DNA of 64,000 nt, taken from Escherichia phage phi92. Location: the sequence record NC_023693.1; one strand, 5' to 3'. A program made the translations under genes and the position numbers. Positions 11,723 to 62,163 of this stretch are shown one piece after another. Under the pieces are notes generated by a model. The model worked only from the letters and a program-made list of their open reading frames with translations, was not told the DNA's origin and did not search any database. Every line of letters starts with the position of its first letter. The first letter of the stretch is position 1.

Positions 11723-14700
11723 TCAGTGACAAGTTGACCATGAACTACCAACATCGTAACCAGCAGTGAGAGGTACATTAAGATTGTAATACTCACCAGC
11801 TTTATTAACAGCGATAGATGCTAATTCTCCAGCACGACTGTAGGCTGTAAACCAACCACCTTTCGGAGATTCATGTACGTTAGCCCAAATCTTGCCAGTA
11901 CGTTTCTCTTCCTCTTCTTTCCAGGCATTAACTTTATCCAAACATTCTTTATCAATTTTCTTTTGTTCCTCTGGATCATCAACTTGAGTCCAACCTAAAG
12001 ATTCTTTAGAGAACCATTTAAAATGCACCAGATCACGAGTTACTTCAAGCTGTGCTTCATCGTGATATGCAATCATTTGTTGAACGAATGACTTATTTTT
12101 CCAGTCATCAACAAAAAAGTCAACAGCTAATCCTTCTTCTTCGATAAGATCGTCGTAGATAACCATTGCTCTTTTTGCACAAATAACACCACCACTCTGG
12201 AACAGAGAGTTAAGTATTGCGTGTGCAGATCGTGTAGGTACTTTCCTACCATCAATACCAAGAATGTATTTCTTACCTGTTTTAACCCAAAAATCATGCA
12301 GACGTTCTTTAAGAAGCGCAAGAGGTTTTGCAGCTTCCCAGAAAGCATCGTATACAAGCTGTCCTGTATACATATCACTACCTATAGTTTTTGCTACTTT
12401 TGCAGCTTGAGCACCATAAGTAATACCATACTTAACAGATTTAGCAGGGCTTCGTTCAAACTTACGACCAATAGTGTCAGAAATACGTCGAGCCATCATT
12501 GTATGAACATCATTAGGTTTTTCCAATAATAGAGCATTACAATATTCGTGTGGTTCCTGCTCGTACCGCCAACAATTCCCTGTAATCGTGATGCAGTCTT
12601 TCTGACGCATAACCCATGTACCGAGTTCTGTTTGTGGACACCAAACATCTTCTACACCCCATTCTTCAATAGTCAGACTTTGAACAGGGATGTGAGAGCG
12701 GTTAGCCAACGTTGCCACTTTTACTTTCTGGTCTTTCGTATTGAAGGCTACAGAAATATTACCCCCATGAACCAGGTATGAGGCAGTTAAGGCTGCTTCA
12801 AAAAGTTCTCCTGGGTTCTGCGCCCAGCGCCAAACAGGTTTTTGTTTATGTTTGTGCCAGTAACCATCCGCAATCAAAAAACCTTCCAAGAAAGCCACAC
12901 GCTCGGCATGAGACATATTAACTACACGTTCTACCCACGGAACATCCCATTTACCTTGTTGAACAGAAGTTAAACTATTTACTTGATCTTGTTCCATGTT
13001 AAATGGAGCATTACAAATAATGTTATCTCCTGTGCAAAGCTCGGCAGTTGTTCTGACTTTAGGCACATAAGTATTCCCTGTACTACGAGTATTAACATAC
13101 CAACGGTGATCTGCTGTTGCACGATAAGTATGGGATTTTCCTTTAATCTCAAACGTCTTACTATTTTTATAGAAGACCTTACCTTTTACTTTAGTCCATT
13201 CTTTAAGTCCTGTTTCTGGGTTATATCCTAAGATTTCATCCCCTTCTTGTAGATCGTGATAACCAACCCAACCTTTACGGGTTAGTGCTTGTGCATCCAT
13301 AGGTACACAGTAGTGTGATTCTATTTTTGCCTCAAGAGAATCAAAGTCATAACCAATTTGGAAGTATTTTGGAACTTCTACACCAAATAAGTTACGCATT
13401 TCATATCCGTACAGAGATGTTACACGTGGGATATTTGCTACTAACCTATGTTTCATACGAGACGTAGCTGCATCACACGTTGCAGCAGGAGTTGGTATAC
13501 GACCATCAGCCCTTACTGCTGCCAGATAACCTTTATCGTAATCCTCTTCATCTTCTTCCCAATCAGCACCACCTCCTAGAATAGAGTTCCTACGGTGTTT
13601 ATACGTAAGATACTGCACAATCTGCGTAGCATAAGGAAACTTTTCACCTAGTGCTTCCAAGTTAGGACAAATATCTTTCTCTTGCCCTTTTGTAAAGGAA
13701 GGGTTAGTAAGCACTTTAACACCACGACCTTTAGCTTTAGCAATACGATCTCTTAGTTTCCATTCCAAAGTTTCTGGTGTGCACTCCAGATGATCACATC
13801 TGTCCTGGCAGAAGTTAGATGCCAATGTTTGATCAACATAGTCACGAATAGCTTTCTCCATTTGTGCTTCATCTTTCTTAATCTTAGTGCCAGATTTAAG
13901 AGTGATATCTTTATCTTTATATTCAGATGGACTCCAACCTAAACCAACTAACCAGTTTTTAATATGTGTCGTGTCGTCTAAAGTAGCAGGTACTGTAGGA
14001 TCACAAATAGGTTCTTCTGCTGGAATAGGTAGTTTAAACTCTTTACCTAAAGCAAATAACCACCAACCATCTTCTTTTTGTACAAGTTCACCAGAATGTT
14101 TCTCTGCAAACTTTATCATGTTACTTGAAGGTTCACCATTCTTTTTAAACTGTAGTTTAGGTGGAATGAATGATTTCAAATAACCTTTAGTAGCAGGTTT
14201 AGGAGGTAGCACAGGTTCTGCCTCTAAACGACATGCTTCCATTCGAGCATCCAGATCACGAATATTATCTTCTGCTTGTTTCATATTGAAAGCAAAGCCA
14301 CGGTGCTCTTGACGTGTAATAATATCCGCTACACGTTGTTCTAAGTTAAATGGTTCAGACCACTTATTATAATCACCCCACTCTTCCATCAAATAACGGA
14401 ACACTGCGGTGTTAGCTTTGTTATCGTAAATACAGTAATACAGCATATCTGCTGCAAATGTTTTAAATCTTTCAGTTTCAGGGATATTTTTTCTAAAATC
14501 AATTTTAACATCCCCTCCAGCTTTCTTAGATAACTCTGCCAGACTATGACCACCGAAGCGATCAGGGTTTAGTGTCTTACTTAAGATCATAGTATCACAA
14601 ATTTCAATGTTACTATTACCCCAAGTATTGTACTTAATACTGTAGTTGAGTTTAAAAAATAATTTAATTGCCAGTAAGTCAAAGTTAATGATGTTATGTC

Positions 14701-15037
14701 CAACTACTTTGGTAATTTTATAGTTTGAATTACCTTTAAATTTACCTGTTCCATTTACAAAATCAGGAAAATCTTTAAGAGGGAAATGGGTATATTCTAA
14801 ATGCTCATATTCCTCCAGTCGGTATTCATACTTTCCGTCAGTCTCAACATACGGACGACCATCGAAAAGATATTTATCACCATCATGGAAAGCAATAATC
14901 TCTCCAGTATCATGACTTTCGCACACAATACAGTGCATTGCAAAACTATCTTTTAAACGATATGGACTTGCCAAGTAATCTACACTTTCGTCATTAAGCA
15001 AGTTGTTACTTTCAATGTCGAAAGTAAAAGCTCCCAT
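11723..15037 (-). CDS. family A DNA polymerase with 3'-5' exonuclease domain, interrupted by an intein
   Basis: Exo I FDIES; motif A DFDSLEAKI; motif B RSPAKSVKYGITYG; motif C YHDEAQLEV; in-frame insertion between motifs A and B. Confidence 0.8.
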   Translation of the reverse strand: MGAFTFDIESNNLLNDESVDYLASPYRLKDSFAMHCIVCESHDTGEIIAFHDGDKYLFDGRPYVETDGKYEYRLEEYEHLEYTHFPLKDFPDFVNGTGKFKGNSNYKITKVVGHNIINFDLLAIKLFFKLNYSIKYNTWGNSNIEICDTMILSKTLNPDRFGGHSLAELSKKAGGDVKIDFRKNIPETERFKTFAADMLYYCIYDNKANTAVFRYLMEEWGDYNKWSEPFNLEQRVADIITRQEHRGFAFNMKQAEDNIRDLDARMEACRLEAEPVLPPKPATKGYLKSFIPPKLQFKKNGEPSSNMIKFAEKHSGELVQKEDGWWLFALGKEFKLPIPAEEPICDPTVPATLDDTTHIKNWLVGLGWSPSEYKDKDITLKSGTKIKKDEAQMEKAIRDYVDQTLASNFCQDRCDHLECTPETLEWKLRDRIAKAKGRGVKVLTNPSFTKGQEKDICPNLEALGEKFPYATQIVQYLTYKHRRNSILGGGADWEEDEEDYDKGYLAAVRADGRIPTPAATCDAATSRMKHRLVANIPRVTSLYGYEMRNLFGVEVPKYFQIGYDFDSLEAKIESHYCVPMDAQALTRKGWVGYHDLQEGDEILGYNPETGLKEWTKVKGKVFYKNSKTFEIKGKSHTYRATADHRWYVNTRSTGNTYVPKVRTTAELCTGDNIICNAPFNMEQDQVNSLTSVQQGKWDVPWVERVVNMSHAERVAFLEGFLIADGYWHKHKQKPVWRWAQNPGELFEAALTASYLVHGGNISVAFNTKDQKVKVATLANRSHIPVQSLTIEEWGVEDVWCPQTELGTWVMRQKDCITITGNCWRYEQEPHEYCNALLLEKPNDVHTMMARRISDTIGRKFERSPAKSVKYGITYGAQAAKVAKTIGSDMYTGQLVYDAFWEAAKPLALLKERLHDFWVKTGKKYILGIDGRKVPTRSAHAILNSLFQSGGVICAKRAMVIYDDLIEEEGLAVDFFVDDWKNKSFVQQMIAYHDEAQLEVTRDLVHFKWFSKESLGWTQVDDPEEQKKIDKECLDKVNAWKEEEEKRTGKIWANVHESPKGGWFTAYSRAGELASIAVNKAGEYYNLNVPLTAGYDVGSSWSTCH
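12575..13309 (-). other. intein inside the DNA polymerase gene (boundaries approximate)
   Basis: Starts CVPMDAQALTRKGW after motif A, contains TADH block and LAGLIDADG-like FLEGFLIADGYW, ends ...ITITGN before CWRY; extein then resumes with NDVHT as in T7 polymerase GDIHT. Confidence 0.5.
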
Positions 15038-34188: not shown

Positions 34189-35164
34189 AAATGTTTCTCC
34201 CTTTCTAGTACCTCTTGCATTTTACCTTTATTATAAGGGCGAGAGTTAGGGGCAGAAAGGTATCCTGACACTCTTCTGATCACAGATATGGATTCTTCTT
34301 CATGATTACCGCAACTTGGACACTCGAAGCCTTTAGCCGTTGCTTTAAATTCACCATGAAAACCACATTTGAAACACTGATCTACAGGTTGGTTCACGCC
34401 AAAATAAGGAATTTTATTGTAGGCATAATCTACAAGAGTTTCCAGTGCTTGCAAGTTATTTTTAAGGTTTGGTGTTTCTACATAACCTATGTTCCCACCA
34501 TTACTAATTTGTGCAAAACCTTCCTCATAATCCCACTTTTGGAACGGGGTAGTGTGCATCCATACAGGTTGATGGAAAGAGTTTGTCAAGTAGTCACGAT
34601 CAATAGAACCAGGATAGCGATCATTTAACGCTTTGGCAAATTTATAGCACAAGGATTCTGCTGGTGTTCCATACAAACTAAAAGCTAAACCAGAACGTTC
34701 TTTAAATGTGCCACAGATATCCTTCATATATTGAAGGATGTTTTTACCCATTGCTTTTGGATTGGTGTTACCTGGGTATAAAATCTCCATAGCTTCTGCT
34801 AAACCTACATAACCGATACTAATAGAGGCATAACCACCTTCGAATAGTTTACCAATCTCTTCATTAGCTTCTAATCGAGCTAAAGCCCCTTCCATAAACA
34901 ATGTAGGGTTTTGAGATGCTTTGGTATGTCTAATACGGTTAACACGTAGCATATGTGCCTTATACGCCATCTCCATATGTTGTTCCAACAGTTCAGTAAA
35001 TAAGATGCCCTTTTCACGGGACTCTGCTGCAATGATAGGTAAGTTTAAAGAAACTACGCCTAAGTTGAAACGACCATCATATTTTTCACCTTGCTCTGTT
35101 GCATAGTATGACAAGAAACTTCTACACATTATGTTCAAAGTGGCTCGCAAGGCCACTCCCGCAC
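34185..35164 (-). CDS. nrdD: anaerobic ribonucleoside-triphosphate reductase, exon 2
   Basis: Glycyl-radical region RRVSGYL and C-terminal CFKCG...CPSCG zinc site; frame open upstream of the track start into the intron. Confidence 0.7.
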
Positions 35165-35398
35165 CATTACGTGCTGCTGCATGTCACCATGCAGATCAGA
35201 CTATATCTTCATGCTTAAAGCATGTCTACCATTTGGGGTGTCATAGGCTTACACCCTACGCTGCTACATTCATCACAGCTAGTCGTTAGGCATTTCGTAA
35301 CAGTACCCCCTTCTTCTGTGTTGGGAGTTCTGTTACGTTTAGCACGGGATTGTCTCGTTGAGAGTTCCCCCGTTTAGGCAGATTTTACATGAGCAGTT
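35165..35398 (-). ncRNA. group I intron (T4 td/nrdD-like), ORF-less; splice sites approximate
   Basis: About 235 nt interrupt nrdD; - strand reads ...TCTGCCTAAACGGGGGAACTCTCAACGAGACAATCCCGTGCTAAAC... closely resembling the conserved core of the T4 td intron as recalled from memory. Confidence 0.6.
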
Positions 35399-36263
35399 AT
35401 AGTTTACCCATGCTTGTGACGCGACCATCTGAAGATCCTGTAACTTCTTTGTTTAAAGGTACAGAGATAAAATCAGGATAAATGCGTTCAGCACAACACT
35501 CCATTGCCAGTTGCTTCAAATCATAGTTTGGATCGCCAGCTTTCATGTTAACACCATCTTCCAAGAAGAAGATAACTTTAGGAAACACAGGAGTTACCCT
35601 ATCTTTTCCTAATCCTTGTTTGTGCACCATTAGGTAGTTTTTAGTGATCATTCTACCAAAAGCAGAGGTATCCAAACCTAAACTAATTGTTATAAAAGGT
35701 GACTGACCATTTACACTCATTAGAGTGTTCACCTGGTAGATTAAAGTTTGCATTGCATCATAGACCTGTTTATCTACCATACGCATAGCAATATCATAAT
35801 CGCCAACATCGGCATATATTTTATTAAAACTTGCTTTAACGTATTGACTAAGCCCAGTATCAACATGTGCACAAGTTTGTCCACCATATTGGCTAGAAGC
35901 TACTGCTTGAATAATTTGAGTTAGGACAGTAGTCGCTACACCGATAGATTTTGGTTTTTCAATATGTGCATTACCAATACGGAAACCGTTCTCAAGCATA
36001 TCTTGGTAATTTACCAGGCAACAATTAGTTAAAGGTGAGAGTAAATAATCTAAATCGTGAATGTGACCATACCCACTTTTATGCCATTCTGCCAGATCTT
36101 CCGGTAAAATATGGGTCATTGCCATGTGCTTGCTTAGGATACCTGCTAGTAAATCTCGGTGAGTATTAACAATCATTGCAGGTTTGTTTGCATTTTCACG
36201 AGTAAATTCTTCGGATGTTTGTTCGAGGAATCCGATTACATCCTCATATAGTTTTTGGGTCAT
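35399..36263 (-). CDS. nrdD: anaerobic ribonucleoside-triphosphate reductase, exon 1
   Basis: 288 aa N-terminal portion ending a few codons into the intron; contiguous in function with exon 2. Confidence 0.7.
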
Positions 36264-38598: not shown

Positions 38599-41373
38599 TT
38601 AGTTTACCAGTTTATTTATATCGGGTAAAAGATTTATTTCACCTAAAAAATCACCTTCACCTTCCTCTAACCAACTCTCATATGCTTGTGCATGATTATA
38701 GTTACCATCAAAAGAATCTGCAACAAATTTTTCTACAGTTTTTCGAGATGTGCCAGCGCCAAATACACCAAGTTTAATACCATTGATCGGTAAAGTGGTG
38801 CTTGTTGGTACTTTCTCTGTTGCAACACGGTTGATATCTATAATCTCCTGTACGGTTGTGTTCCATTGTAAGCATTTAACACAACGGGTATGCGCTACAT
38901 ACAGTAGGTTTCGCTCTGCCTCTTCCAGTCCTACCCATTCACCAGTCTTTTTATCATAGTTGGAAGGAAAATCATTAGCAACAATAACCTGATCCCACTC
39001 CAAACCTTTAGACTTGTGTGCTGTAGTCAGTGTGACTTTTGCTGTAGGAGAATTTCTATGCGTTCTAAGTGTATGTGCTATAGTGTTCGCCTTACCAGAA
39101 ACTACGATGTTTAACAAGCGTTTAGCATCTGGATCAGCCTCTGCACACTCAACAAATTCATTCCAATCTGCGTAAGGTAATACAGTTTCATGTTTTACTT
39201 TCTCAATATCTCCTCTCCGAAGAGCATTAACACTATCTACCATAGAGATAAAATCCCTGGTATCTACGTTAATAATAATTTCTTCCCCATTTGCAATACG
39301 ATCCATTGCCTCCATAAGCAAGGTTAAATTCTTGCGAAAGATGATAGTGTAAGGTTTTGTATAGTCTACAACATCTGATTTGTAGCTACCTACTACAGTA
39401 TCAAAGCCTTTACCAACCAAAGGATGACGCAAAGGTTCTTTATCGCTTAAAATCATATTGGCAATGTTTGCCACTTTGGGGCCAAAACGGAAGCAAGCAG
39501 TTAATGGAAGCTCTGCCCCATACTTAGCTGTTTCAATCATCATATTAGAGCTACCTCTAAATTGATAAATGCAGTTGTGGCTAAGAATTTCATTGCCAAA
39601 GAAGTTAGCAGTATCCTCTACTTCAATATCATAATAGATACCCTCACTATCTACAATGTCCACAATCTCTTCTGCCGTTACAGTATCACCATCTTTTACC
39701 AACACAGACATGCCTTTAAACAAACCCGCTGCCGGAATTAAGTTATATTTGGCAGTGTCTACAGAGGACATGCATTCTTTTAAAGATGCAAACGGAACTA
39801 TTTCAAGGATCTTTTGTGCAAAACTCAATGCTTCACGATAAGAATTGAAATACTTACGTACACGGTAACGACCTTCCAATTTAGCAACACTTACGCTTAC
39901 ACCTGCTTTAATGAGTGAAGCATAGATCGGCATTTCACTTTCTGTCCACTCAAAACTGACTTGTGTTCCTTTACAACCTTGTGCTCGCAAAGTCACTGTT
40001 AACATTTTTCTTTCATCTACTGCACAATTGATGCTGTGCCAATGTGGATAAGCAAAATGATAGTCTTTATCCTCTAAAAGTTTAAAACCATTCTGTCCGA
40101 ATTGTTCAAAGATGTTATTGATCCTTTCTTGATTAATGCCGCGTGAACTTGCTTCAAATACACAAGTAGGAATGCCATATTGTAAACTGTATGCCATTTC
40201 TTTTTCCATAGCAGCTTCGCGATTTTCAACAATGTCCAACACCCATAATTTCTGTGCTTTTTCAGAACGTGTACGTTGCCCCAGTTTAGAAAAACCTTCT
40301 TTATCATCGAATTTGTTAGTGATCCCTACTCGGAAACCTAAATCTTTCCTCCACATTAGGTATACCACCATCTGGTCATCTTTCAGAACATAGGATGAAG
40401 CCCAAATACGATGGTTATGTGTCATATCTAAAGTTTTACCTGTAGCAGTAATAATATTCCTACCTTTTGTACGTGTAGATAAAGTTTTATTTGTTACTTT
40501 TCTAAATGTAACTTTACCATTAGAATAAGACTCTACCTTATCACCGATTTGCAGGTCTTTCATTGTAACCTGACCATTCTCGGTGTTAAGTACCGTGTTT
40601 TCCGACACACATTGGAATTCATCGCCCACTACCACAATTTGTTTTGCAGATTTAGCATTTCGCAGAATAGACAAGAATGCAGGGTTAACATCCTGGAATT
40701 CATCACCAAAAATAATATCATAACCAAGATCAGCACCAGACAATTCAAACAATTTTACATAGGTGTCATGCGTCATCAAAGTATCTGTATTAGGATCAAT
40801 GCGCTCTCGCCACAATTGTTTTGCATACTTAACTACTTCTGTAATTAGTTTGTGTTCGTTAATACCTTTTCTTTTAATATCTGCAAGATGTACACTAGGA
40901 AAATGTTTACGGCTGATAAAAGGATCATCCGAAAATTCAAACTTACCTACGGTTTGCTTGATCATTAAACCGATCATAGCACGAGTTAAAAGTGTTTTCC
41001 CTCGTTTATCAATAAGATTATTAATCTTAAATTTCTTTGCTATCTCGCTACCTGTACCTGCAACGTTAACATACTGTCCTTCTGGTCGTGACAGTTTTGC
41101 ACGTAAACGATGATCCAGGAATTGATAGCAAATAGAATGCAATGTACGGCATTCTACATTTAGTGGCATCTTACGTCGTGCTTCTTCTGCCATGCTTTTA
41201 TTGAAAGCTAAGTAAAGAATGCGATCTTCTGTACTGTTAGCCAGCAAATAAAGTGTTGACGTTTTGCCTGATCCAGATTTAGCTTGGATAGTTAAAAAGC
41301 GATGGTCTGGAAAAGCCTCCTTAATAGCTGTTTGCTCTTCTGTTGGAGTGAAGCTCAAATCTTTCTTAGCCAT
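38599..41373 (-). CDS. UvrD/Rep-like SF1 DNA helicase interrupted by an intein
   Basis: Walker A AKSGSGKT, motif II GDEFQDVN, motif III split as VVGDEFQ / CIYQFRGSS; start set to ATG (MAKKDL) with RBS agagagg. Confidence 0.75.
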   Translation of the reverse strand: MAKKDLSFTPTEEQTAIKEAFPDHRFLTIQAKSGSGKTSTLYLLANSTEDRILYLAFNKSMAEEARRKMPLNVECRTLHSICYQFLDHRLRAKLSRPEGQYVNVAGTGSEIAKKFKINNLIDKRGKTLLTRAMIGLMIKQTVGKFEFSDDPFISRKHFPSVHLADIKRKGINEHKLITEVVKYAKQLWRERIDPNTDTLMTHDTYVKLFELSGADLGYDIIFGDEFQDVNPAFLSILRNAKSAKQIVVVGDEFQCVSENTVLNTENGQVTMKDLQIGDKVESYSNGKVTFRKVTNKTLSTRTKGRNIITATGKTLDMTHNHRIWASSYVLKDDQMVVYLMWRKDLGFRVGITNKFDDKEGFSKLGQRTRSEKAQKLWVLDIVENREAAMEKEMAYSLQYGIPTCVFEASSRGINQERINNIFEQFGQNGFKLLEDKDYHFAYPHWHSINCAVDERKMLTVTLRAQGCKGTQVSFEWTESEMPIYASLIKAGVSVSVAKLEGRYRVRKYFNSYREALSFAQKILEIVPFASLKECMSSVDTAKYNLIPAAGLFKGMSVLVKDGDTVTAEEIVDIVDSEGIYYDIEVEDTANFFGNEILSHNCIYQFRGSSNMMIETAKYGAELPLTACFRFGPKVANIANMILSDKEPLRHPLVGKGFDTVVGSYKSDVVDYTKPYTIIFRKNLTLLMEAMDRIANGEEIIINVDTRDFISMVDSVNALRRGDIEKVKHETVLPYADWNEFVECAEADPDAKRLLNIVVSGKANTIAHTLRTHRNSPTAKVTLTTAHKSKGLEWDQVIVANDFPSNYDKKTGEWVGLEEAERNLLYVAHTRCVKCLQWNTTVQEIIDINRVATEKVPTSTTLPINGIKLGVFGAGTSRKTVEKFVADSFDGNYNHAQAYESWLEEGEGDFLGEINLLPDINKLVN
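39574..40611 (-). other. intein (about 346 aa) inside helicase motif III
   Basis: Begins CVSENTVLNTENGQVT right after GDEFQ, ends ...NEILSHN directly before CIYQFRG. Confidence 0.6.
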
Positions 41374-41374
41374 T

Positions 41375-41851
41375 TCAACCTCTCTTAATTTGTTTAACAA
41401 GCATAGGAACAAAATCTCGTTTTAAAATTTGTTCAATAATATGATCAGGTAGCTGTTGGAAATTATAATTAAAAGCTACTGTCTCACCTTTAGGTGTTTC
41501 TACCCGCACATATAACATGTTACGAAGTTTATCCACTTGTGCTGTATATTCTAAACCATGTAATTGATGTATTGCAAACATCAAATCGTCAGTTTCAGTT
41601 TGGAATCTATCACTTCCTTGCATCAAGGACAAGGTAAAAGGTAGATTTTCCCTAAGAGCCACCTTCTTAGGCACTAGTGAAGGGAAATACTCCCCAATAA
41701 CTTCCTGTGTAAGCTGAATACACTCTTTTTCAAGCTGGTTTTGTTCCTTGAGTTCACAAACACTTTTTTGTAAAGTGTTAACCTCTTTTTGCAAAGCTGC
41801 TAGTTGAGCACTTAACTTTCTTTTTTGATTACGACCAAAACGTTTAGACAT
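41375..41851 (-). CDS. hypothetical protein
   Basis: 158 aa ORF, N-terminal coiled coil. Confidence 0.4.
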   Translation of the reverse strand: MSKRFGRNQKRKLSAQLAALQKEVNTLQKSVCELKEQNQLEKECIQLTQEVIGEYFPSLVPKKVALRENLPFTLSLMQGSDRFQTETDDLMFAIHQLHGLEYTAQVDKLRNMLYVRVETPKGETVAFNYNFQQLPDHIIEQILKRDFVPMLVKQIKRG

Positions 41852-48993: not shown

Positions 48994-50121
48994 ATGAAAT
49001 ACACGATTTATGGTGATATTGTAAGTGTAAATAAAGATATGGGCGTGGAATCTAACTATCTTCCACCTGGATTCTATACTGTTAGTCGTGATCCCCTTGG
49101 CAATTATTTTTTAAGCCGTGGTAATCTAACAGGTGTACCGGATGTTCTGTATGGTGAAACAGAAAAACGAGCAAATCACGTTATTCGTACATTCCATCGC
49201 CGGAGTGCACAAGGTAAAAATACAGGCTTGCTTCTGACAGGAACTAAGGGCAGTGGTAAAACTATGTTAGCCAAGCTCATTAGTCGTGACCTTGTAGAAG
49301 AAGGTATTCCAACTATTATGGTTACTCAAGCCTACAGTGATGCTAATTTCATTGAACTTATTAGCAAGATCACCGACAAAGCAGTAATTATTTTTGACGA
49401 ATTTGATAAAGTATACGAGAAGAAACAAGATCAAGAAGCACTTCTCACTTTGTTAGACGGTACTGGTAGTGGTAATAAACTGTTTATTTTGACTAAAAAC
49501 AGTGGTTTTATCTCGGAATTCTTTTTAAATCGTCCTAGTCGTGTGTTTTATAATTTTAATTATGATAAAATCTCACTAGAAACCATGATTGACTATTTAG
49601 ATAAAAACCTGGATAACAAAGCACACTTTGATAATTTCCAAAGACTTTGGGATGTAAGTTTAGAGTTGTCCTTTGATGTGATCCAAGGTATAGTAGAAGA
49701 ACTTAATTTCTACCCTGATTTATCCTTTAAAGAATGCATCTCTATGATGGGTGTTTCTTTAGGTGGTGGTAATAAATGGGATATCAGCAGCGTTGTTATT
49801 AATGGAAAACTTCAGAAAGTTAGCTGGGTATCTAGTTGGCATAACTTTACACCTGCAATCTTTTTAGGTGGCTCGTGCACACTAGACGTGTACTTGTCAT
49901 CTCCAAGTGATGCAGATTCTAAAGAAGCCCTTGCTAATAGCTCTTACGTGGTTTTTGATGATGAAGGCGATGCTCGAATTCCATTGAACGCAACAAAAAT
50001 GAAAGCAGATCTTATTACAGGCGGTAAAATCGTTGTGTTTAGTGATGATCCAGAAGATTCTTTCCGTATTGTTCTGGAACCAACTATCACCAATGGTGCA
50101 ACTTTGGCAAGCGTGTTTTAA
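48994..50121 (+). CDS. P-loop ATPase (paralog of 32537-33697)
   Basis: Walker A GTKGSGKT, Walker B IIFDEFDKV; collinear similarity to the - strand ATPase over most of its length. Confidence 0.5.
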   Translation: MKYTIYGDIVSVNKDMGVESNYLPPGFYTVSRDPLGNYFLSRGNLTGVPDVLYGETEKRANHVIRTFHRRSAQGKNTGLLLTGTKGSGKTMLAKLISRDLVEEGIPTIMVTQAYSDANFIELISKITDKAVIIFDEFDKVYEKKQDQEALLTLLDGTGSGNKLFILTKNSGFISEFFLNRPSRVFYNFNYDKISLETMIDYLDKNLDNKAHFDNFQRLWDVSLELSFDVIQGIVEELNFYPDLSFKECISMMGVSLGGGNKWDISSVVINGKLQKVSWVSSWHNFTPAIFLGGSCTLDVYLSSPSDADSKEALANSSYVVFDDEGDARIPLNATKMKADLITGGKIVVFSDDPEDSFRIVLEPTITNGATLASVF

Positions 50122-50135
50122 GTAAGCCAGCAAAT

Positions 50136-50160
50136 AAAAACCCGCTTCGGCGGGTTTTCT
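50136..50160 (+). terminator. rho-independent terminator
   Basis: AAAAACCCGC-TTCG-GCGGGTTTTCT. Confidence 0.55.
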
Positions 50161-50195
50161 TGCATTAATGCCAGATTTAATAAGAGGAGTAGTAG

Positions 50196-51386
50196 ATGGC
50201 AGCACCAAAATCATGGGAACAATATAAAGAAGAGTGTCAACCAATAGCAGAGAGTAAGCAAATCCAAATCTTAGGATGGACGGGAGAATGGAAAGGGAAC
50301 AAGACTAAACTTAAGCTATCTTGCTCTGATCATGGAGAGTGGAACACCACGAACATTAATGATTTTAAGAATGGACGTGGTTGTCCGGCATGTACAAGTA
50401 ATAAGTCGTTAACATGGGAAACAGAATTGCCGATCTTAGAAGAGATAGCACAGAAGAAGGGGTATCAAGTGTTAGGGTACGTTGGAGAATGGAAAGGGGT
50501 TAATACAAAACTTGATTTGTTGTGTCATTGTGGGAATAGATGGCAAAGTACAATTATTAAGACATTTAAACGTGTAAATGGTTGTCCACAGTGTAGAATA
50601 GAGAAGGTAAAGCAAGCCAGTACGAAGTCAGATGATGAAAGGATCGCCTCTTTCCTTGCTAAGCGGGATTATCCAGAAGGAACTATCTTTAAACGATCTG
50701 ATCGGACTACCTTGCAAGGTCGTGCAGTTTATTGGTTTGTGTATTGCCCTATCTGTGCACAAGATGAAATAACGAAAGCTGGGTTATGTAGTGGATGGTT
50801 TGAAAGTACAGCAGGGGATTTGCAAAAAGGGACTGCCGCTTGTCGTTGTAGTAAGTCCCCTAAATACACAGACGATCAGAATACATTCCGTGCAATGAAG
50901 GTATGCGAGGATAACGGTTATCAGTTTGTTGGTTGGGTTGATAAGGTAGGAACACAGTCTAAGTTTAAATATCTGTGTCCAGAACACGGGGTACAAATTA
51001 TAACATTGGGTAGTATGGTTAGGGGTCATGGATGCCCTGAATGTGCTGGTAATAGTCAACAGCAATTATATATTAACATTGTTAAAGATAATGATATTAC
51101 CGTTGCTCTTAAGTTTGGCATAGCTAAAGATAGCGACAGGCGATTAAACAGTCAAAATAGCCGTAATCTGTTTTTTATGGAGCGTATTTGTTTATATGAT
51201 TTTAGTACAGTGAAACAATGTAAGGCTACTGAAAGAGCTATAAAGAAAAAATTAAAAACTGGTATTTTAACGGCAAGAGAGTTGAAAGACGGTTATACAG
51301 AAACAGTAAGTGTTTCTGATTTGGAAAATCTTCAAAAAATTATTACACAATATGGTGGCAAATTGGTATATAGTAAGGAGGTGTAA
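50196..51386 (+). CDS. zinc-ribbon repeat protein with C-terminal T5orf172 (GIY-YIG-like) domain
   Basis: Repeated units GW.GEWKG..TKL.L.C..HG.W...GCP.C; C-terminal LYINIVK...ALKFGIAKDSDRRLNSQN. Confidence 0.5.
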   Translation: MAAPKSWEQYKEECQPIAESKQIQILGWTGEWKGNKTKLKLSCSDHGEWNTTNINDFKNGRGCPACTSNKSLTWETELPILEEIAQKKGYQVLGYVGEWKGVNTKLDLLCHCGNRWQSTIIKTFKRVNGCPQCRIEKVKQASTKSDDERIASFLAKRDYPEGTIFKRSDRTTLQGRAVYWFVYCPICAQDEITKAGLCSGWFESTAGDLQKGTAACRCSKSPKYTDDQNTFRAMKVCEDNGYQFVGWVDKVGTQSKFKYLCPEHGVQIITLGSMVRGHGCPECAGNSQQQLYINIVKDNDITVALKFGIAKDSDRRLNSQNSRNLFFMERICLYDFSTVKQCKATERAIKKKLKTGILTARELKDGYTETVSVSDLENLQKIITQYGGKLVYSKEV

Positions 51387-51938
51387 ATGCGGATTACTGA
51401 TAAGTATGTGTTCTTCTTCTCGGCAAAAGATGAATTTAGCAACTGGTATCTATCATCTTTTATTGAACCTTTAGCACCCAAGTATAATAACTCTATTACA
51501 AGTTCTGTTGAATTTACTTGTGTGGAACAATATATGATGTGGAGAAAAGCATGTTTGTTTTATGATTACAATATTGCATCTTCTATTTTAATCGGAGATC
51601 TCAGATATACAGGAGAAAAAGAACAAGCATATTATAAGCGACTAGGTAGATTAGTTAAAGATTATGATGAAGACACCTGGACTTCTTTACGGGAGAAGAT
51701 TGTCAAACGTGGTTTGTATCTTAAATACACACAAAATGAAGATCTCAAAAATAAACTTATCGCTTACGCAGATAAGGAGTTCGTAGAGGCAAGCCCCTAT
51801 GATTCTATTTATGGTATCAAAATGGGGATGTGGGATCGGGACGTGGAAAATAAGGATTGTTGGAAAGGACAAAATCTTTTAGGAAAATGGCATACAGACC
51901 TTGCTGTTTATCTAAAAACACAATCTGATATTTCCTGA
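51387..51938 (+). CDS. NADAR (YbiA-like) domain protein
   Basis: FFFSAKDEFSNWYLSSF, EQYMMWRKA and EASPYDSIYGIKMG blocks match NADAR signature positions; RBS aaggagg. Confidence 0.5.
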   Translation: MRITDKYVFFFSAKDEFSNWYLSSFIEPLAPKYNNSITSSVEFTCVEQYMMWRKACLFYDYNIASSILIGDLRYTGEKEQAYYKRLGRLVKDYDEDTWTSLREKIVKRGLYLKYTQNEDLKNKLIAYADKEFVEASPYDSIYGIKMGMWDRDVENKDCWKGQNLLGKWHTDLAVYLKTQSDIS

Positions 51939-52154
51939 TATTTTGAAAATTTTTATTTTTATAAAAAGGGGTGTGGGTTTCATGTACGGAAATTCACCCT
52001 CTGCACAGTATACCCAGAGTAAGTATTATTCTATACTCTGTTAATAAAGTATTTAATTTGTTTGTTGGACTATGGTATCTGGTTTTTAAAAGACACATTA
52101 TCTCTTAACTACTATTTATAACAGAACAGTAAAATCATTTTTATAAAAAGGACA

Positions 52155-52355
52155 AAATTATTTAAAGTTTTTACTAGATTTTTGGCTACAAATTTTGAAA
52201 ATGAAAAGTTCAAGTTTGGTCAAAATTATTTAAAGTTTTTGTACGTATTTCTATCCAGATTTTGAAAATGAAAACTTCAATTTTTTAAAAATTCCCCAGT
52301 TTATTTAAAGTTTTTTTGCCTTTTTCCGTAGAAAAATCAAAAATGAAAAGTTCAA
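52155..52355. repeat. three tandem imperfect direct repeats (iterons, about 70-75 bp)
   Basis: Each unit contains TTATTTAAAGTTTTT ... TTTGAAAATGAAAA(G/C)TTCAA. Confidence 0.6.
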
Positions 52356-52378
52356 TTTCGTGTTTTTATGGGTGTGCG

Positions 52379-52500
52379 GATGATAATCATTCTCATTTGT
52401 AAATGAGAATCATTATCATTTAATTATGTAAGTGATAATCATTCTCACTAAGAGAATGAGAATCATTAGCAAATGAGAATTTTTCTCATTTAGAGAATAA
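52379..52500. promoter_or_regulatory. cluster of palindromic operator-like sites (Fur-box-like)
   Basis: GATAATCATTCTCATTTGTAAATGAGAATCATTATC near-perfect 36-bp palindrome, plus GATAATCATTCTCA...GAATGAGAATCATTAGC and AAATGAGAATTTTTCTCATTT. Confidence 0.45.
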
Positions 52501-52753
52501 CGCGCAGGGGTGGTGTTTGTCTCGCGCTCCCGTGTCCCCTCGCCATACAATAAGAATAGCATAACCAACAACAAAAGCAAGCGATTATTTTTATCTTTAC
52601 ATTTCTTTACAAATTTATTTTAGACGAGCTACCGGCGATCAACCTTCCAACCAGTAGTGCCCTGGTATGTTAGCCCCGCCTTTACGCCGTGGGGGTGGCG
52701 CTTCCTCTTCTGTATGTAAAACAGTATAAGCCCGATCCCTGGGCTTGTCAAGA

Positions 52754-53020
52754 TTATTTTTTGTTTTCTTGCCAGGATAGGACACCTAACCAAAAATACA
52801 TGTCGCCCCGCGCCCCTGGTGGGATCTTGCTTTCCCCGCCGCCACTGCAAGCCCATAGATAACCATTTGCGAACGTATCAAAATGATCTATCTCTTCCAC
52901 CTTATGATCGCCCAGGTTGAGAACGGTTTCAACCTTTAAGCCCGTTGCGCTTGCTACCTGGTGCACCGTGCCGCCTTGCCAGCCCAATGAGTGCATGAGG
53001 TGTGAAGTAGTATTTGTCAT
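52754..53020 (-). CDS. hypothetical ORF in GC-rich island (uncertain)
   Basis: 88 aa ORF with weak RBS; local GC content visibly higher than the surrounding phage DNA. Confidence 0.25.
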   Translation of the reverse strand: MTNTTSHLMHSLGWQGGTVHQVASATGLKVETVLNLGDHKVEEIDHFDTFANGYLWACSGGGESKIPPGARGDMYFWLGVLSWQENKK

Positions 53021-53131
53021 GGTATCGCCCTTTCTTTGATGTGCGCCCTGGTTGGCGCGGTAGAAAGATAATAGCCCTTTCCTTTATAGATAGCAAGCAA
53101 AAAAGAAATGAAAAAAGATTAAAAAAAGGGG

Positions 53132-53160
53132 TTGACGTTCCTCACCTGGTAGCGTATTAT
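53132..53160 (+). promoter_or_regulatory. sigma70-like promoter
   Basis: TTGACG, 17-bp spacer, TATTAT. Confidence 0.4.
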
Positions 53161-53287
53161 TCATCTTGTCGAGGGGGGCGAGGCACAACGACAATAAACA
53201 AAAGGAGGGCGCAATGCAGGACGGGCAAAGGTGAGGATCTCCACAATCCACCGTCACAATAACATTACTTATAAAAGGTTGATAACG

Positions 53288-53392
53288 ATGATCAAGAAAG
53301 AAAACAGCTTGACGGTTGGAACGATTAACGCTATTTTGTTAGCCGTTCCAGTGTGGATCACTGTAGCAATTGTTGTTTCAATCATTCTATAA
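53288..53392 (+). CDS. small membrane peptide (34 aa)
   Basis: MIKKENSLTVGTINAILLAVPVWITVAIVVSIIL; below track size cut-off. Confidence 0.35.
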   Translation: MIKKENSLTVGTINAILLAVPVWITVAIVVSIIL

Positions 53393-53402
53393 GGCGTACA
53401 CT

Positions 53403-53684
53403 ATGAGCAAGGTAATTAATCATAAAGAGTTAAGCCCTACCCTTTCAATGAGTGAATGTACCGATGGTTTTTGGCTGTATGATGATACGCGCGGCATGAA
53501 TTTAGCCATGCGTGAAAAAACAGAAGAGGCGGCGTATATTAAAGCCCTGGAATACTACCAACGACGACTACAGGAAGTAGAAAGTAATTATAAAAGCCTG
53601 AAATCAAAGGTTGATCATTTTGTCGGTCAAGTAGTGGAAGAGGAAGAAGATCACTATTGCGAACGGTGCGGATCATATAGCTGA
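53403..53684 (+). CDS. hypothetical early protein
   Basis: Start set to ATG (MSKVINHK); track ORF starts upstream in the same frame. Confidence 0.4.
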   Translation: MSKVINHKELSPTLSMSECTDGFWLYDDTRGMNLAMREKTEEAAYIKALEYYQRRLQEVESNYKSLKSKVDHFVGQVVEEEEDHYCERCGSYS

Positions 53685-60000: not shown

Positions 60001-60022
60001 CACAACTAAAAGAGAAATCAGC

Positions 60023-60217
60023 ATGGCGCTTAAAAAACTAACAAGCAATACTCGTTGGGATGAAATCGACGGGGAAGTATACATTTTCGCCCGTAAACCA
60101 GGTGATCAAAAATGGTCAAAGGCTTTTACTTGCCACCCTGCAACAATAGACCTGATAAAAAGGGAAGGTCTACGTGAAGCAGTAGCGAGAAGTTTACTGA
60201 TCCCTTATAAAAAATAG
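60023..60217 (+). CDS. hypothetical early protein
   Basis: Start set to ATG (MALKKLTSN). Confidence 0.45.
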   Translation: MALKKLTSNTRWDEIDGEVYIFARKPGDQKWSKAFTCHPATIDLIKREGLREAVARSLLIPYKK

Positions 60218-60218
60218 T

Positions 60219-60279
60219 TTGACAATATGCTGTTATCTGGTAAAGTGTACGACATAGGGCGGGGCAATAAGGCAACGCC
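60219..60279 (+). promoter_or_regulatory. early promoter + degenerate leader hairpin (cassette 12)
   Basis: TTGACA, 16 bp, TAAAGT, then GGCGGGGCAATAAGGCAACGCC with only a short GGCG/CGCC stem. Confidence 0.4.
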
Positions 60280-60301
60280 ACACATCAGAAAGGGAAAGAT
60301 T

Positions 60302-60538
60302 ATGACTATAGCAACAGTATTAACCGCCGTTAAAACCGCAGAATCATCCGGCTTGCATGTTGAGATTATAGATCAACCAGGTGGCGATCTCCTTGTCCAG
60401 GTTTACCCGCCGAAAGTAGGGGATGATTATTATTGGTGCTATTCTGATACGTTCGAACAAGTAGACACGAAAGCGATCACGGCTTTTATTTTAAAAGCTA
60501 TTGAAGAAAATAACTTTCATTATAACATCAATCAATAA
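60302..60538 (+). CDS. hypothetical early protein
   Basis: Start set to ATG (MTIATVLTAV) with RBS aagggaaag. Confidence 0.45.
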   Translation: MTIATVLTAVKTAESSGLHVEIIDQPGGDLLVQVYPPKVGDDYYWCYSDTFEQVDTKAITAFILKAIEENNFHYNINQ

Positions 60539-60558
60539 ACCATAAGCGGGGTAGCATC

Positions 60559-60663
60559 ATGTTAGAGAAAATTTTCACGGTTGTAATAGTGGGCCTGGCG
60601 TTATCGGTTGGATTGGTTGCAACTATGGCTAACATGATCCTATCTTCCCACGGTATCGGCTAA
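60559..60663 (+). CDS. small membrane peptide (34 aa)
   Basis: MLEKIFTVVIVGLALSVGLVATMANMILSSHGIG. Confidence 0.3.
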   Translation: MLEKIFTVVIVGLALSVGLVATMANMILSSHGIG

Positions 60664-60677
60664 AAGAGAAACACAAC

Positions 60678-61064
60678 ATGAAAACAGAAATCATTATTGA
60701 AATCATCAACGGTTATAAAGAAGCCTTTATTTTTGCCGAACCAGCGACGGATCACAATGGGGAATATATTGAGAATCTAGACGATTATGATTTTTCTCCT
60801 AGCGCCCTGAAACGTATTACCAGCGATGTGACCGCCTTTTGTAGTGCCAATGTTGCCGCTATCTCTGAGGCAATGAGCGACGGCGCTACAGCAAACCAGA
60901 TCGGGAATGATTTACATTTCACCCGTAACGGTCACGGCGTAGGCTTTTGGGATCGCCCTGAAATATACACTACTAACACCGCCAACCGCCTAACAAATGC
61001 AGCTAAATTAATGCCATCGGTGCATGCTTACATTGGTGAAGATAATTTGATTTATATTGAATAA
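60678..61064 (+). CDS. hypothetical early protein
   Basis: 128 aa ORF. Confidence 0.45.
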   Translation: MKTEIIIEIINGYKEAFIFAEPATDHNGEYIENLDDYDFSPSALKRITSDVTAFCSANVAAISEAMSDGATANQIGNDLHFTRNGHGVGFWDRPEIYTTNTANRLTNAAKLMPSVHAYIGEDNLIYIE

Positions 61065-61070
61065 AAAGTA

Positions 61071-61129
61071 TTGACACCGATCCCCAATATGGTACTATTT
61101 ACCACGTAGGCGGGAAGTGGTTTCCCGCT
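61071..61129 (+). promoter_or_regulatory. early promoter + leader hairpin (cassette 13)
   Basis: TTGACA, 16 bp, TACTAT, then GGCGGGAAG-TGG-TTTCCCGCT (two G-T positions). Confidence 0.55.
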
Positions 61130-61186
61130 AAATGAGAGATTATCATTATGTTCGATATCAGCCTGGACAAATAAGAGATTCCCATA

Positions 61187-61732
61187 ATGAACGCCTTGAT
61201 CGACAAAAAAACCTTTCTTAATAACGCCTACGTTAATGAACTACTTTCATCCGGTCGCTGGGTTAGCCACGGATCTGACCTTCAAACATGGCTAGATGAG
61301 TGCGACGAGGTTCCCGCCGCCTTTTCAGGTAAAAATTTGCAGCAGGTTATAAATGATACTGAATTTTTAAACTTCTTCCGTGAGTGGTTAAGCTGCCGCT
61401 TTGATTTTGCTATGAAATATCTGATCCAAGACATTAACCAACACACGGTTATTCGGCGGGCGGTATACCTAACCCCGGCACAAAAGGCCGAAATATTGCC
61501 CGGTTCTTTTGTTAATGTTGGTAAATATTGGACAGTATCCAGGACTGTGGAGCCATACGGGGCCACCTACACAAAGGATCGGGAGATAGTAACAATCACC
61601 ACAGAGTTAGACCTTAATTCAATCGACCTTATTCAGACGATGATCTCTCGCATGGACTATATTAATGGAGATTATGAAATGGAGATACAAACAAAGGAAA
61701 ACTTACCTGTAAAAATTCTCGCTATAGAATAG
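61187..61732 (+). CDS. hypothetical early protein
   Basis: 181 aa ORF. Confidence 0.45.
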   Translation: MNALIDKKTFLNNAYVNELLSSGRWVSHGSDLQTWLDECDEVPAAFSGKNLQQVINDTEFLNFFREWLSCRFDFAMKYLIQDINQHTVIRRAVYLTPAQKAEILPGSFVNVGKYWTVSRTVEPYGATYTKDREIVTITTELDLNSIDLIQTMISRMDYINGDYEMEIQTKENLPVKILAIE

Positions 61733-61755
61733 CCCGCTGCCCGGCGGGTTTTCTT
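61732..61755 (+). terminator. rho-independent terminator
   Basis: GCCCGC...GCGGG stem followed by TTTTCTT. Confidence 0.5.
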
Positions 61756-61788
61756 ACAGTTTTTTACAATTCTACCTATTGACACCGG

Positions 61789-61839
61789 ATCGCCCTTATA
61801 CTAAGATGTATCACGTAAGGCGGGAAGTGGTTTCCCGCC
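61789..61839 (+). promoter_or_regulatory. early promoter + leader hairpin (cassette 14)
   Basis: TTGACA, 17 bp, TAAGAT, then GGCGGGAAG-TGG-TTTCCCGCC. Confidence 0.55.
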
Positions 61840-61857
61840 AGATATAGGAGTCATATC

Positions 61858-62088
61858 ATGATCGAACAAATTAAACGCGCTGAGGCTATTAACGGTAATG
61901 TGATCTATTTTGTCAACAATAACGAAAAAGGCGTACCATATGCGGCGGTAATAGTACAGCCTGACGGCGATTATTGGTTTACTGTATACGGATCTTATTC
62001 TTTTGGGCGTCCAGTACATGATAAAATTTTGGAAGTAGCTAATCCCACTGGGAAGAATATCACAGTAGAAAAATTCTATGAAAAATAA
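61858..62088 (+). CDS. hypothetical early protein
   Basis: 76 aa ORF, RBS aggag. Confidence 0.45.
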   Translation: MIEQIKRAEAINGNVIYFVNNNEKGVPYAAVIVQPDGDYWFTVYGSYSFGRPVHDKILEVANPTGKNITVEKFYEK

Positions 62089-62163
62089 CTTGCTTTATAG
62101 CCTCTGTTAATTTATAGTTATCGTGTAGGGCAAACAATTTTAAACGGTAAACGAGGAATCTCC

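What the first reader, a model, noticed from the sequence alone, without database searches (positions are those of the whole stretch)
50196..51386. Unusual architecture: tandem zinc-ribbon repeats fused to a T5orf172 (GIY-YIG-like) domain
The N-terminal 300 residues contain four repeats of the type GW.GEWKG..TKL.L.C..HG.W...F..G.GCP.C. The C-terminus (LYINIVKDNDITVALKFGIAKDSDRRLNSQN) matches the T5orf172 signature. This combines nucleic-acid-binding zinc modules with a putative nuclease or DNA-binding domain, as in a homing or regulatory endonuclease. It sits immediately before the NADAR gene.
Basis: partly seen in the sequence, partly recalled or inferred. Interest (0 to 1): 0.5.

Follow-up and report, generated by a model that had tools for sequence, protein, structure and literature searches.

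The report
Phage nuclease with shuffled zinc-finger array
This gene of a phi92-like coliphage encodes four zinc-finger DNA-binding modules fused to a GIY-YIG-type nuclease, a published and common phage "homing-endonuclease-like" design; the only unusual feature is that related phages all keep the gene at one site and reshuffle its DNA-binding part.

Summary

The architecture is not unusual. It matches PHROG 681 "endonuclease" and resembles ICP1 Gp165. It is the [quoted passage not shown] design described by Netter 2021 and Barth 2023. About 8,400 cluster representatives match it in public protein data.

First, the gene is fixed between the ATPase and NADAR genes in all 54 Justusliebigvirus genomes that carry both flanks, so there is no empty site and classical homing polymorphism is not seen. 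Second, the flanks and the nuclease-coding part are 90-100% identical across the genus, but the zinc-finger array (about 50254-51033) is only 45-60% identical. That array is a mosaic of shuffled modules present in 3 to 5 copies in genus alleles (6 in more distant homologs).

Best reading: a resident site-specific DNA endonuclease whose target specificity is rapidly re-assorted. Verdict: new member of a known kind, modest interest.

The parts
50136..50161 (+). Terminator-like hairpin (AAAACCCGC-TTCG-GCGGGTTTT, then CTT) 15 nt after the ATPase stop codon
   Evidence: Read directly from the sequence. The equivalent site is annotated as a terminator in phage PATM. The consensus scan did not list it.
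50182..50189 (+). Shine-Dalgarno AAGAGGAG, 6 nt before the ATG
   Evidence: Sequence.
50196..51386 (+). CDS of 396 aa: CapR-array T5orf172 endonuclease, ortholog of Phi92_gp222
50211..50396 (+). Zinc module R1 (about res 6-67), A-type; ligands C43, H46, C63, C66
   Evidence: Pfam CapR 52.2 bits alone. Ligand conservation. Local HMM boundaries.
50412..50597 (+). Zinc module R2 (about res 73-134), A-type; ligands C110, C112, C130, C133
   Evidence: Pfam CapR 49.5 bits alone.
50652..50852 (+). Zinc module R3 (about res 153-219), B-type, the canonical CapR motif C184xxC187-x28-C216xC218
   Evidence: Pfam CapR 45.3 bits alone, model positions 4-67. All four Cys are invariant in 52 homologs. Motif as in PMC8096241.
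50865..51047 (+). Zinc module R4 (about res 224-284), A-type; ligands C261, H264, C280, C283
   Evidence: Pfam CapR 47.4 bits alone, plus a weak DUF723 hit.
50254..51033 (+). Hypervariable, mosaic cassette. It corresponds to most of the zinc-finger array and is about 45-60% nt identical to other Justusliebigvirus, whereas the flanks are 90-100% identical.
   Evidence: Sliding-window identity against 9 related loci. Allele statistics. Module shuffling.
51060..51374 (+). T5orf172 / GIY-YIG-fold nuclease domain (res 289-393). Invariant residues: Y292, N294, K306, G308, R316, E346, D365, G366, E369, T370.
51387..51938 (+). Downstream NADAR gene. Its ATG abuts the endonuclease stop (TAAATG), and its Shine-Dalgarno (AAGGAGG) lies inside the end of the endonuclease ORF.

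Best explanation
The gene encodes a sequence-directed DNA endonuclease of the phage 'T5orf172 homing-endonuclease-like' family.

Proposed mechanism:
- Four CapR-type zinc modules are strung like beads and bind a DNA site. Three are A-type (CxxH or CxC ... CPxC) and one, in the penultimate position, is B-type (CxxC ... CxC).
- The C-terminal GIY-YIG-fold T5orf172 domain cuts DNA near that site. The candidate catalytic residues are Y292, R316, E346 and E369.

Evolutionary setting in this phage genus:
- The gene is a fixed resident between the AAA ATPase gene and the NADAR gene. It is not a sporadically inserted element.
- The nuclease-coding part evolves like the rest of the genome.
- The zinc-finger array is a cassette that is re-assorted module by module between co-circulating phages, with 3 to 5 modules in genus alleles (6 in more distant homologs). 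The enzyme's target specificity therefore changes fast.
- I infer that its targets are foreign or competing DNA, most likely genomes of related phages carrying other alleles in mixed infections. This would give allele-biased inheritance or exclusion, as with T4 seg/mob genes.

Shown: domain identity, fold, residue conservation, fixation of the gene, cassette hypervariability and shuffling.
Inferred: DNA binding, cleavage, and the nature of the target.
For: - Domains: CapR x4; T5orf172; PHROG 681 'endonuclease' E=2.4e-87.
- Constraint: the zinc ligands and Y292, R316, E346 and E369 are invariant in 52 full-length homologs down to 28% identity and in 32 diverse C-terminal domains.
- Experimental precedents: CapR binds DNA through its 4 Cys (PMC8096241). 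The T5orf172 nuclease Odn cleaves DNA, and its E180A mutant is dead (PMC8263062).
- Fixation: 54 of 54 genomes carrying both flanks have the gene between them. The gene sits in the same position after the ATPase in Phapecoctavirus.
- Hypervariable cassette: nt identity falls from 90-100% to about 45-60% only within 50254-51033. Across 23 alleles the median aa identity is 50.7% for the array and 92.5% for the nuclease domain.
- Shuffling: 28 A-type and 12 B-type module clusters occur in many combinations and copy numbers.
Against: - The T5orf172 sequence match is marginal (20-23 bits against a cutoff of 20; model positions 11-69 of 101).
- A profile search of PDB sequences found nothing.
- No member of this CapR-array subfamily has been shown to cleave DNA, and Barth 2023 states that homing of the ICP1 homologs is unverified.
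- No target site is known or predictable.
- Which invariant Glu is catalytic rests on topology only.
- Cassette diversity could partly reflect tolerance to change rather than selection for new targets.
- The contrast of 6 nonsynonymous and 0 synonymous differences in R1 against phage PATM is too small a sample to show positive selection.
Confidence: 0.6

Rival explanations
1. It is a classical free-standing homing endonuclease gene. The enzyme cuts the empty ATPase-NADAR junction of genomes that lack it, and the gene is copied in by repair.
For: - The family is annotated and discussed as HEGs (PMC10448857).
- The gene is intergenic, lies between conserved genes, and has its own Shine-Dalgarno after a terminator-like hairpin.
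- A more distant Klebsiella phage (KP2025) has the ATPase but neither this gene nor a NADAR homolog detectable by tblastn at that site.
Against: - There is no empty site in any of the 54 genomes with both flanks.
- The position is the same across two genera.
- The flanks show no co-conversion-type divergence, and the divergence is confined to the array inside the gene.
- The nuclease domain evolves at the genomic rate. This is unlike the invade-decay-loss cycle expected of HEGs, because all 23 alleles are intact.
Confidence: 0.15
2. It is an anti-satellite or anti-mobile-element nuclease like ICP1 Odn. The array mimics or tracks a DNA-binding protein of a parasite of the phage, and the nuclease destroys that parasite.
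For: - In the same phage genus (Inny, Muut) another T5orf172 protein carries swapped RepA_N domains that match E. coli satellites (PMC10448857).
- CapR itself is a satellite protein (PMC8096241).
- Rapid change of the DNA-binding part with a constant nuclease is the pattern expected in an arms race.
Against: - The array-coding DNA has no blastn match in 5,426 complete E. coli genomes.
- Only 4 loci encoding relatives were found in 185,579 species-representative bacterial genomes, and none was from an enterobacterial genome.
- There is no PADLOC hit.
- No satellite partner is known.
Confidence: 0.12
3. It is a domesticated DNA-binding regulator, either a CapR-like repressor or an I-TevI-like autorepressor. 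Its main role would be to control neighbouring genes such as NADAR, with little or no cleavage.
For: - CapR is a pure repressor derived from this family (PMC8096241).
- I-TevI doubles as a repressor (discussed in PMC10448857).
- The gene is fixed and abuts NADAR with TAAATG.
Against: - The nuclease motif residues are invariant over deep divergence. This is not expected for a dead domain.
- A regulator of a conserved neighbour should keep its DNA specificity, whereas this array is the most variable segment of the locus.
Confidence: 0.08

Closest known systems
ICP1 T5orf172 putative homing endonucleases (Gp165, Gp174 and relatives; Netter 2021, Barth 2023)
   Same: The order of parts is the same: N-terminal CapR-type zinc-finger module(s), often repeated, followed by a C-terminal T5orf172 domain. 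tblastn gives 29-30% identity over res 1-325 to ICP1 Gp165. Repeat-number changes and module recombination are described for this family (PMC10448857).
   Different: ICP1 copies show presence/absence polymorphism, frameshifts and deletions between isolates. This gene is intact and fixed at one locus in all 54 genomes examined, and its variation is confined to the array. It has four modules in a fixed grammar: A-type x n, then B, then A.
PLE CapR (satellite-encoded capsid-operon repressor)
   Same: It is homologous to the zinc-dependent DNA-binding domain here. Module R3 carries the same CxxC...CxC motif whose cysteines are required for DNA binding (PMC8096241).
   Different: In Netter 2021 CapR's similarity is to the N-terminal domains of the ICP1 T5orf172 proteins, and it acts as a repressor. 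This protein has four modules and a conserved nuclease domain.
ICP1 Odn (Gp88), origin-directed nuclease
   Same: It has a T5orf172 nuclease fused to a swappable DNA-binding domain, and its nuclease activity has been demonstrated experimentally (PMC8263062).
   Different: Odn's DNA-binding domain is RepA_N copied from its satellite target. This protein uses a CapR array, and no target element was found.
I-TevI and the T4 seg-type GIY-YIG homing endonucleases
   Different: The domain order is reversed (catalytic domain N-terminal in I-TevI). There is no significant sequence similarity. In I-TevI the zinc finger acts as a linker or ruler and DNA is bound by the C-terminal HTH-containing domain (PMC10448857).
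SLX1 / HIGLE structure-specific GIY-YIG nucleases
   Different: They are eukaryotic, structure-specific rather than sequence-specific, and only 13-16% identical. The resemblance is at the level of fold, not family membership.

Membership tests
Pfam CapR homology domain (PF21817) | Profile score above the gathering threshold (24.2 bits) | tested here: met
   Four segments scanned separately score 52.2, 49.5, 45.3 and 47.4 bits. The whole protein scores 161 bits in 4 stretches.
Pfam CapR homology domain (PF21817) | Two conserved pairs of zinc ligands (CxxC ... CxC in CapR) that are required for DNA binding | tested here: met
   R3 has C184xxC187-x28-C216xC218, all invariant. R1, R2 and R4 have CxxH or CxC ... 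CPxC, with ligands invariant or at least 90% conserved in 52 homologs. Zinc binding and DNA binding themselves were not testable.
T5orf172 (PF10544) / MUG113, GIY-YIG clan | Profile score above the gathering threshold (20 bits) | tested here: met
   20.2 bits on the whole protein and 23.0 bits on the isolated domain, covering only model positions 11-69 of 101. 12 of 32 diverse homolog domains hit T5orf172 and 7 of 32 hit MUG113 at E<=0.01. This passes, but marginally.
GIY-YIG nuclease superfamily | The GIY-YIG alpha/beta fold | tested here: met
GIY-YIG nuclease superfamily | Conserved Tyr in strand 1, catalytic Arg in helix 1, and metal-binding Glu | tested here: inconclusive
   Y292, R316, E346 and E369 are invariant and lie in the expected secondary-structure elements. 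Which Glu is catalytic is not resolved.
GIY-YIG nuclease superfamily | Mg-dependent DNA cleavage | not testable with these tools
   This needs a biochemical assay. The precedent within T5orf172 is Odn (PMC8263062).
Free-standing homing endonuclease gene | Sporadic presence or absence among close relatives (occupied and empty sites) | tested here: not met
   A query joining the ATPase 3' end to the NADAR 5' end found both halves in 54 records at 97-98.5% identity and never adjacent. The gene is also present at the same position in Phapecoctavirus. It is absent only in the more distant phage KP2025.
Free-standing homing endonuclease gene | Cleavage of the cognate empty site and biased inheritance in crosses | not testable with these tools
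   This needs cleavage assays and phage crosses.
   In the AF2 model the first knuckle follows a beta-strand, but the CPxC knuckle opens a helix (H64-67, H131-142, H281-285). The weak co-hits are to DUF4379 'probable treble clef'. I had no access to the model coordinates and found no solved structural match for the modules.
Odn-like anti-satellite nuclease | The DNA-binding domain is homologous to a protein or site of a host-borne satellite | tested here: not met
   There is no blastn match of 50196-51060 in 5,426 E. coli genomes. Four loci were found in GTDB representative genomes, none from an enterobacterial genome. A protein-level search of E. coli genomes was not available.

The most novel reading that the evidence does not exclude
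The locus could be a natural 'programmable nuclease' system.
- A conserved GIY-YIG-type cutter is fixed in every phage of the subfamily.
- Its target is set by a combinatorial array of exchangeable zinc-finger modules, each reading a few base pairs. This would resemble PRDM9 or engineered zinc-finger nucleases.
- Frequency-dependent selection would keep dozens of alleles circulating, because each allele cuts the genomes or alleles of rival phages in mixed infections.
- The system would then act as an incompatibility or exclusion system rather than a homing element.
Probability: 0.25. Interest if true: 0.65.

Novelty: new member of a known kind. Interest (0 to 1): 0.33.

Why it matters
As an architecture it does not matter much, because it is already described and common in phages.

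The locus is nevertheless a clean natural experiment. Dozens of alleles share an almost identical nuclease domain and identical flanks, and differ only in the number and identity of their zinc modules. That makes it a convenient system for three things:
- deriving a recognition code for CapR-type modules;
- testing whether T5orf172 'HEGs' really cut DNA;
- asking whether such nucleases mediate competition between closely related phages, for example in phage cocktails of phi92-like viruses.

Tried and rejected
- Foldseek of the whole five-domain model against the PDB gave no significant hit. The best results were dsRBD proteins at probability below 0.4 and SLX1 at E=1.3. I therefore modelled the C-terminal domain alone.
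- A profile search of PDB sequences with the C-terminal alignment gave only a chance TUP1 hit at E=0.13.
I use it as a lead only.
- NCBIfam gave nothing meaningful, and PADLOC gave nothing.
- There is no paralog of the gene elsewhere in the window (tblastn).
- There are no nucleotide-level internal repeats in the gene. The four modules are therefore old copies rather than a recent duplication.
- The sigma-70 promoter scan found no more sites than shuffled sequence gives, and the terminator scan missed the visible hairpin. I make no promoter claim.
- I searched for a bacterial or satellite source of the array. There was no DNA match in E. coli genomes and only 4 distant loci in representative bacterial genomes.
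- Nei-Gojobori counts against the nearest relative (PATM) gave 6 nonsynonymous and 0 synonymous differences in R1, against 0 and 23 in the ATPase. This is suggestive, but the sample is too small and it may be a single conversion patch. I do not claim positive selection.
- The supplement of Barth 2023 lists phage Muut as a genome, but my accession and name searches did not find this gene there.

Full report
**What is there.** The window comes from a phi92-like coliphage (Stephanstirmvirinae, Justusliebigvirus). The stretch 49000-52500 is 97.5% identical to Escherichia phage vB_Eco_PATM and about 95% identical to some 50 other genomes. The ORF at 50196-51386 (+) encodes 396 aa. It follows the AAA-ATPase gene (48994-50121), a terminator-like hairpin (50136-50161) and a strong Shine-Dalgarno sequence. 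Its TAA stop abuts the ATG of a NADAR gene at 51387. In PATM the ortholog is labelled Phi92_gp222, and RefSeq calls the orthologs in alia and VEcB 'endonuclease'.

- Pfam reports the CapR homology domain (PF21817) at E=6.8e-48 in four stretches.
- Each of the four segments, scanned alone, exceeds the gathering score by about 20 bits or more.
- R1, R2 and R4 form one subtype, which I call A-type. It has a helix, a beta-hairpin, a CxxH or CxC knuckle, and then GCPxC.
- R3 is a B-type module with C184xxC187-x28-C216xC218. This is the motif shown by Netter et al. to be required for DNA binding by CapR (PMC8096241).
- R1 and R2 are 44% identical. R4 is 25-28% identical to them. R3 is related to the others only at profile level.
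It is not a literal pattern.
- In the AlphaFold model (pLDDT 90.5) the second knuckle leads into a helix, and the weak co-hits are to a 'treble clef' family. 'Zinc ribbon' is therefore only approximately right.

**The C-terminal domain.**
- By sequence the T5orf172 match is marginal. It scores 20.2 to 23.0 bits against a cutoff of 20 and covers only model positions 11-69 of 101.
- The match is reproducible across the family. 12 of 32 diverse homolog domains hit T5orf172 and 7 of 32 hit the sister family MUG113.
- Modelled alone from a 32-sequence alignment, the domain has pLDDT 97.3.
- The I-TevI catalytic domain and a UPF0213 GIY-YIG protein appear further down the list.
- The full-length model gives the same ranking and adds AtGRXS16-N and a GIY-YIG restriction enzyme.
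- Y292, N294, K306, G308, R316, E346, D365, G366, E369 and T370 are invariant in 52 full-length homologs down to 28% identity. Y292, K306, G308, R316, E346, D365, G366, E369 and T370 are also invariant in 32 diverse C-terminal domains, where N294 is at least 90% conserved.
- This conservation argues for an active enzyme.
- T5orf172 nuclease activity has been shown for ICP1 Odn, where a Glu-to-Ala change abolishes cleavage (PMC8263062).

**The architecture is not unusual.**
- PHROG 681 'endonuclease' matches residues 6-393 at E=2.4e-87.
- tblastn finds relatives in 521 phage records, including ICP1 Gp165, which is annotated 'putative homing endonuclease'.
- An exhaustive HMMER search finds 8,441 50%-identity cluster representatives at E<=1e-3 and 257 at E<=1e-30.
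- Netter et al. 2021 described CapR-like N-terminal domains fused to T5orf172 in ICP1.
- Barth et al. 2023 reported that 200 of 229 T5orf172 HEGs carry CapR, DUF723 or DUF4379-type zinc fingers. These are typically repeated, and recombination between repeats changes copy number (PMC10448857).

**What the locus comparison adds: the gene is fixed.**
- I built a query that joins the last 400 nt of the ATPase gene to the first 400 nt of NADAR.
- Both halves occur at 97-98.5% identity in 54 phage records.
- The two halves are never adjacent in any of them.
- Phapecoctavirus ukendt also has the gene directly after the ATPase.
- Only the more distant Klebsiella phage KP2025 lacks it.
- The presence/absence polymorphism that defines a mobile homing endonuclease gene was therefore tested and not found.

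**What the locus comparison adds: divergence is confined to the array.**
- Against nine related loci, nucleotide identity is 90-100% through the ATPase gene, the first 60 nt or so of this gene, the whole nuclease-coding part and NADAR.
- Identity falls to about 45-60% between roughly 50254 and 51033.
- Within that stretch there are patches of high identity that differ from genome to genome.
- Among 23 allele representatives whose nuclease domain is at least 85% identical to this one, median pairwise identity is 50.7% for the array (minimum 28.8%). For the nuclease domain it is 92.5%.
- Gene lengths cluster at about 330, 396 and 465 aa among these alleles, and about 560 aa in more distant homologs. 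These correspond to 3, 4, 5 and 6 modules with the grammar A x n, then B, then A, then T5orf172.
- Clustering the modules at 80% identity gives 28 A-type and 12 B-type clusters, used in many combinations. Examples are A00-A01-B02-A03 in this window, A00-A01-B07-A08, A04-B06-A03 and A32-A33-A01-B09-A08.
- The conserved 5' leader (MxxPKSWEQYKEE...) and the conserved junction (GHSQQQLYIN...) provide homology arms for exchange of the cassette.
- The modules of this allele share no nucleotide repeats. They are therefore old copies, not a recent duplication.

**How it most likely works.**
- By analogy with I-TevI and Odn, the zinc modules bind a specific DNA site and the tethered GIY-YIG-type domain cuts nearby.
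- The catalytic part is constant and the recognition part is re-assorted among co-circulating phages.
- The simplest reading is a nuclease whose specificity is under pressure to change, directed at non-self DNA.
- I favour rival phage genomes in mixed infection (exclusion, or allele-biased inheritance) over classical homing, since there is no empty site.
- I also favour it over an Odn-like anti-satellite role. The array DNA has no match in 5,426 E. coli genomes, only four distant loci were found in representative bacterial genomes, and there is no PADLOC hit.
- A pure regulator is unlikely for two reasons. The nuclease residues are invariant, and a regulator of a conserved neighbour should not change its specificity.
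- These target assignments are inferences. No binding or cleavage site can be predicted with the tools available.

**Verdict.** The functional interpretation is supported, but the claim that the architecture is unusual is not. The gene is a new allele (96-97% identical to its nearest relatives) of a known, widespread and published family. The fixed position and the shuffled recognition cassette make it a good model locus but not a new kind of system.

Noticed in passing
window 39571-40617 (-), inside the UvrD-type helicase ORF 38599-41412: There is a 349-aa in-frame insertion relative to phage alia. It begins with Cys and ends ...SHN followed by Cys, and it hits the Pfam Intein_splicing, Hint and Hint_2 models. 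This is an intein that is present here and absent in a 98%-identical relative.
   Followed up: partly
window 12575-13306 (-), inside the DNA polymerase ORF 11723-15037: There is a 244-aa in-frame insertion relative to alia, CVPMDAQ...ITITGN followed by Cys. It contains a TADH block and a LEGFLIADGY (LAGLIDADG-like) motif. It has no Pfam hit at E<=0.01. It is probably a second intein with an endonuclease remnant.
   Followed up: partly
window 35120-35406, 53356-53684 and about 60017-62115: These are further presence/absence or replaced segments relative to phage alia in an otherwise 95-98% identical alignment. One example is the 104-aa ORF at 53370-53684, which alia lacks.
   Followed up: no
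window 51939-53370: This is a long, largely non-coding stretch after NADAR. It holds two tandem repeats (52153-52284, period 67, 2 copies; 52386-52447, period 29, 2.1 copies). The same region is annotated 'repeat_region' in alia and muut. No tRNA genes were found anywhere in the window.
   Followed up: partly
window 51374-51389: The endonuclease stop and the NADAR start abut (TAAATG), and an AAGGAGG sequence lies inside the end of the endonuclease ORF. This suggests translational coupling of the two genes. In Phapecoctavirus ukendt two small ORFs separate them.
   Followed up: partly
related records MG065639, MG065645, MG065656, MG065689, MG065650: Five GenBank records named 'Campylobacter phage' with host C. 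jejuni match this region. Four (MG065639, MG065645, MG065656, MG065689) are 97.5% identical over the NADAR-side flank; the fifth, B15 (MG065650), matches only part of the ATPase gene at 73%. The host labels look doubtful.
   Followed up: no
L003 (Klebsiella phage KP2025) 2661-3622: In KP2025 the endonuclease and NADAR genes are replaced by a 115-aa ORF and a 205-aa ORF. The 205-aa ORF was not detected as similar to the window's NADAR by tblastn.
   Followed up: partly
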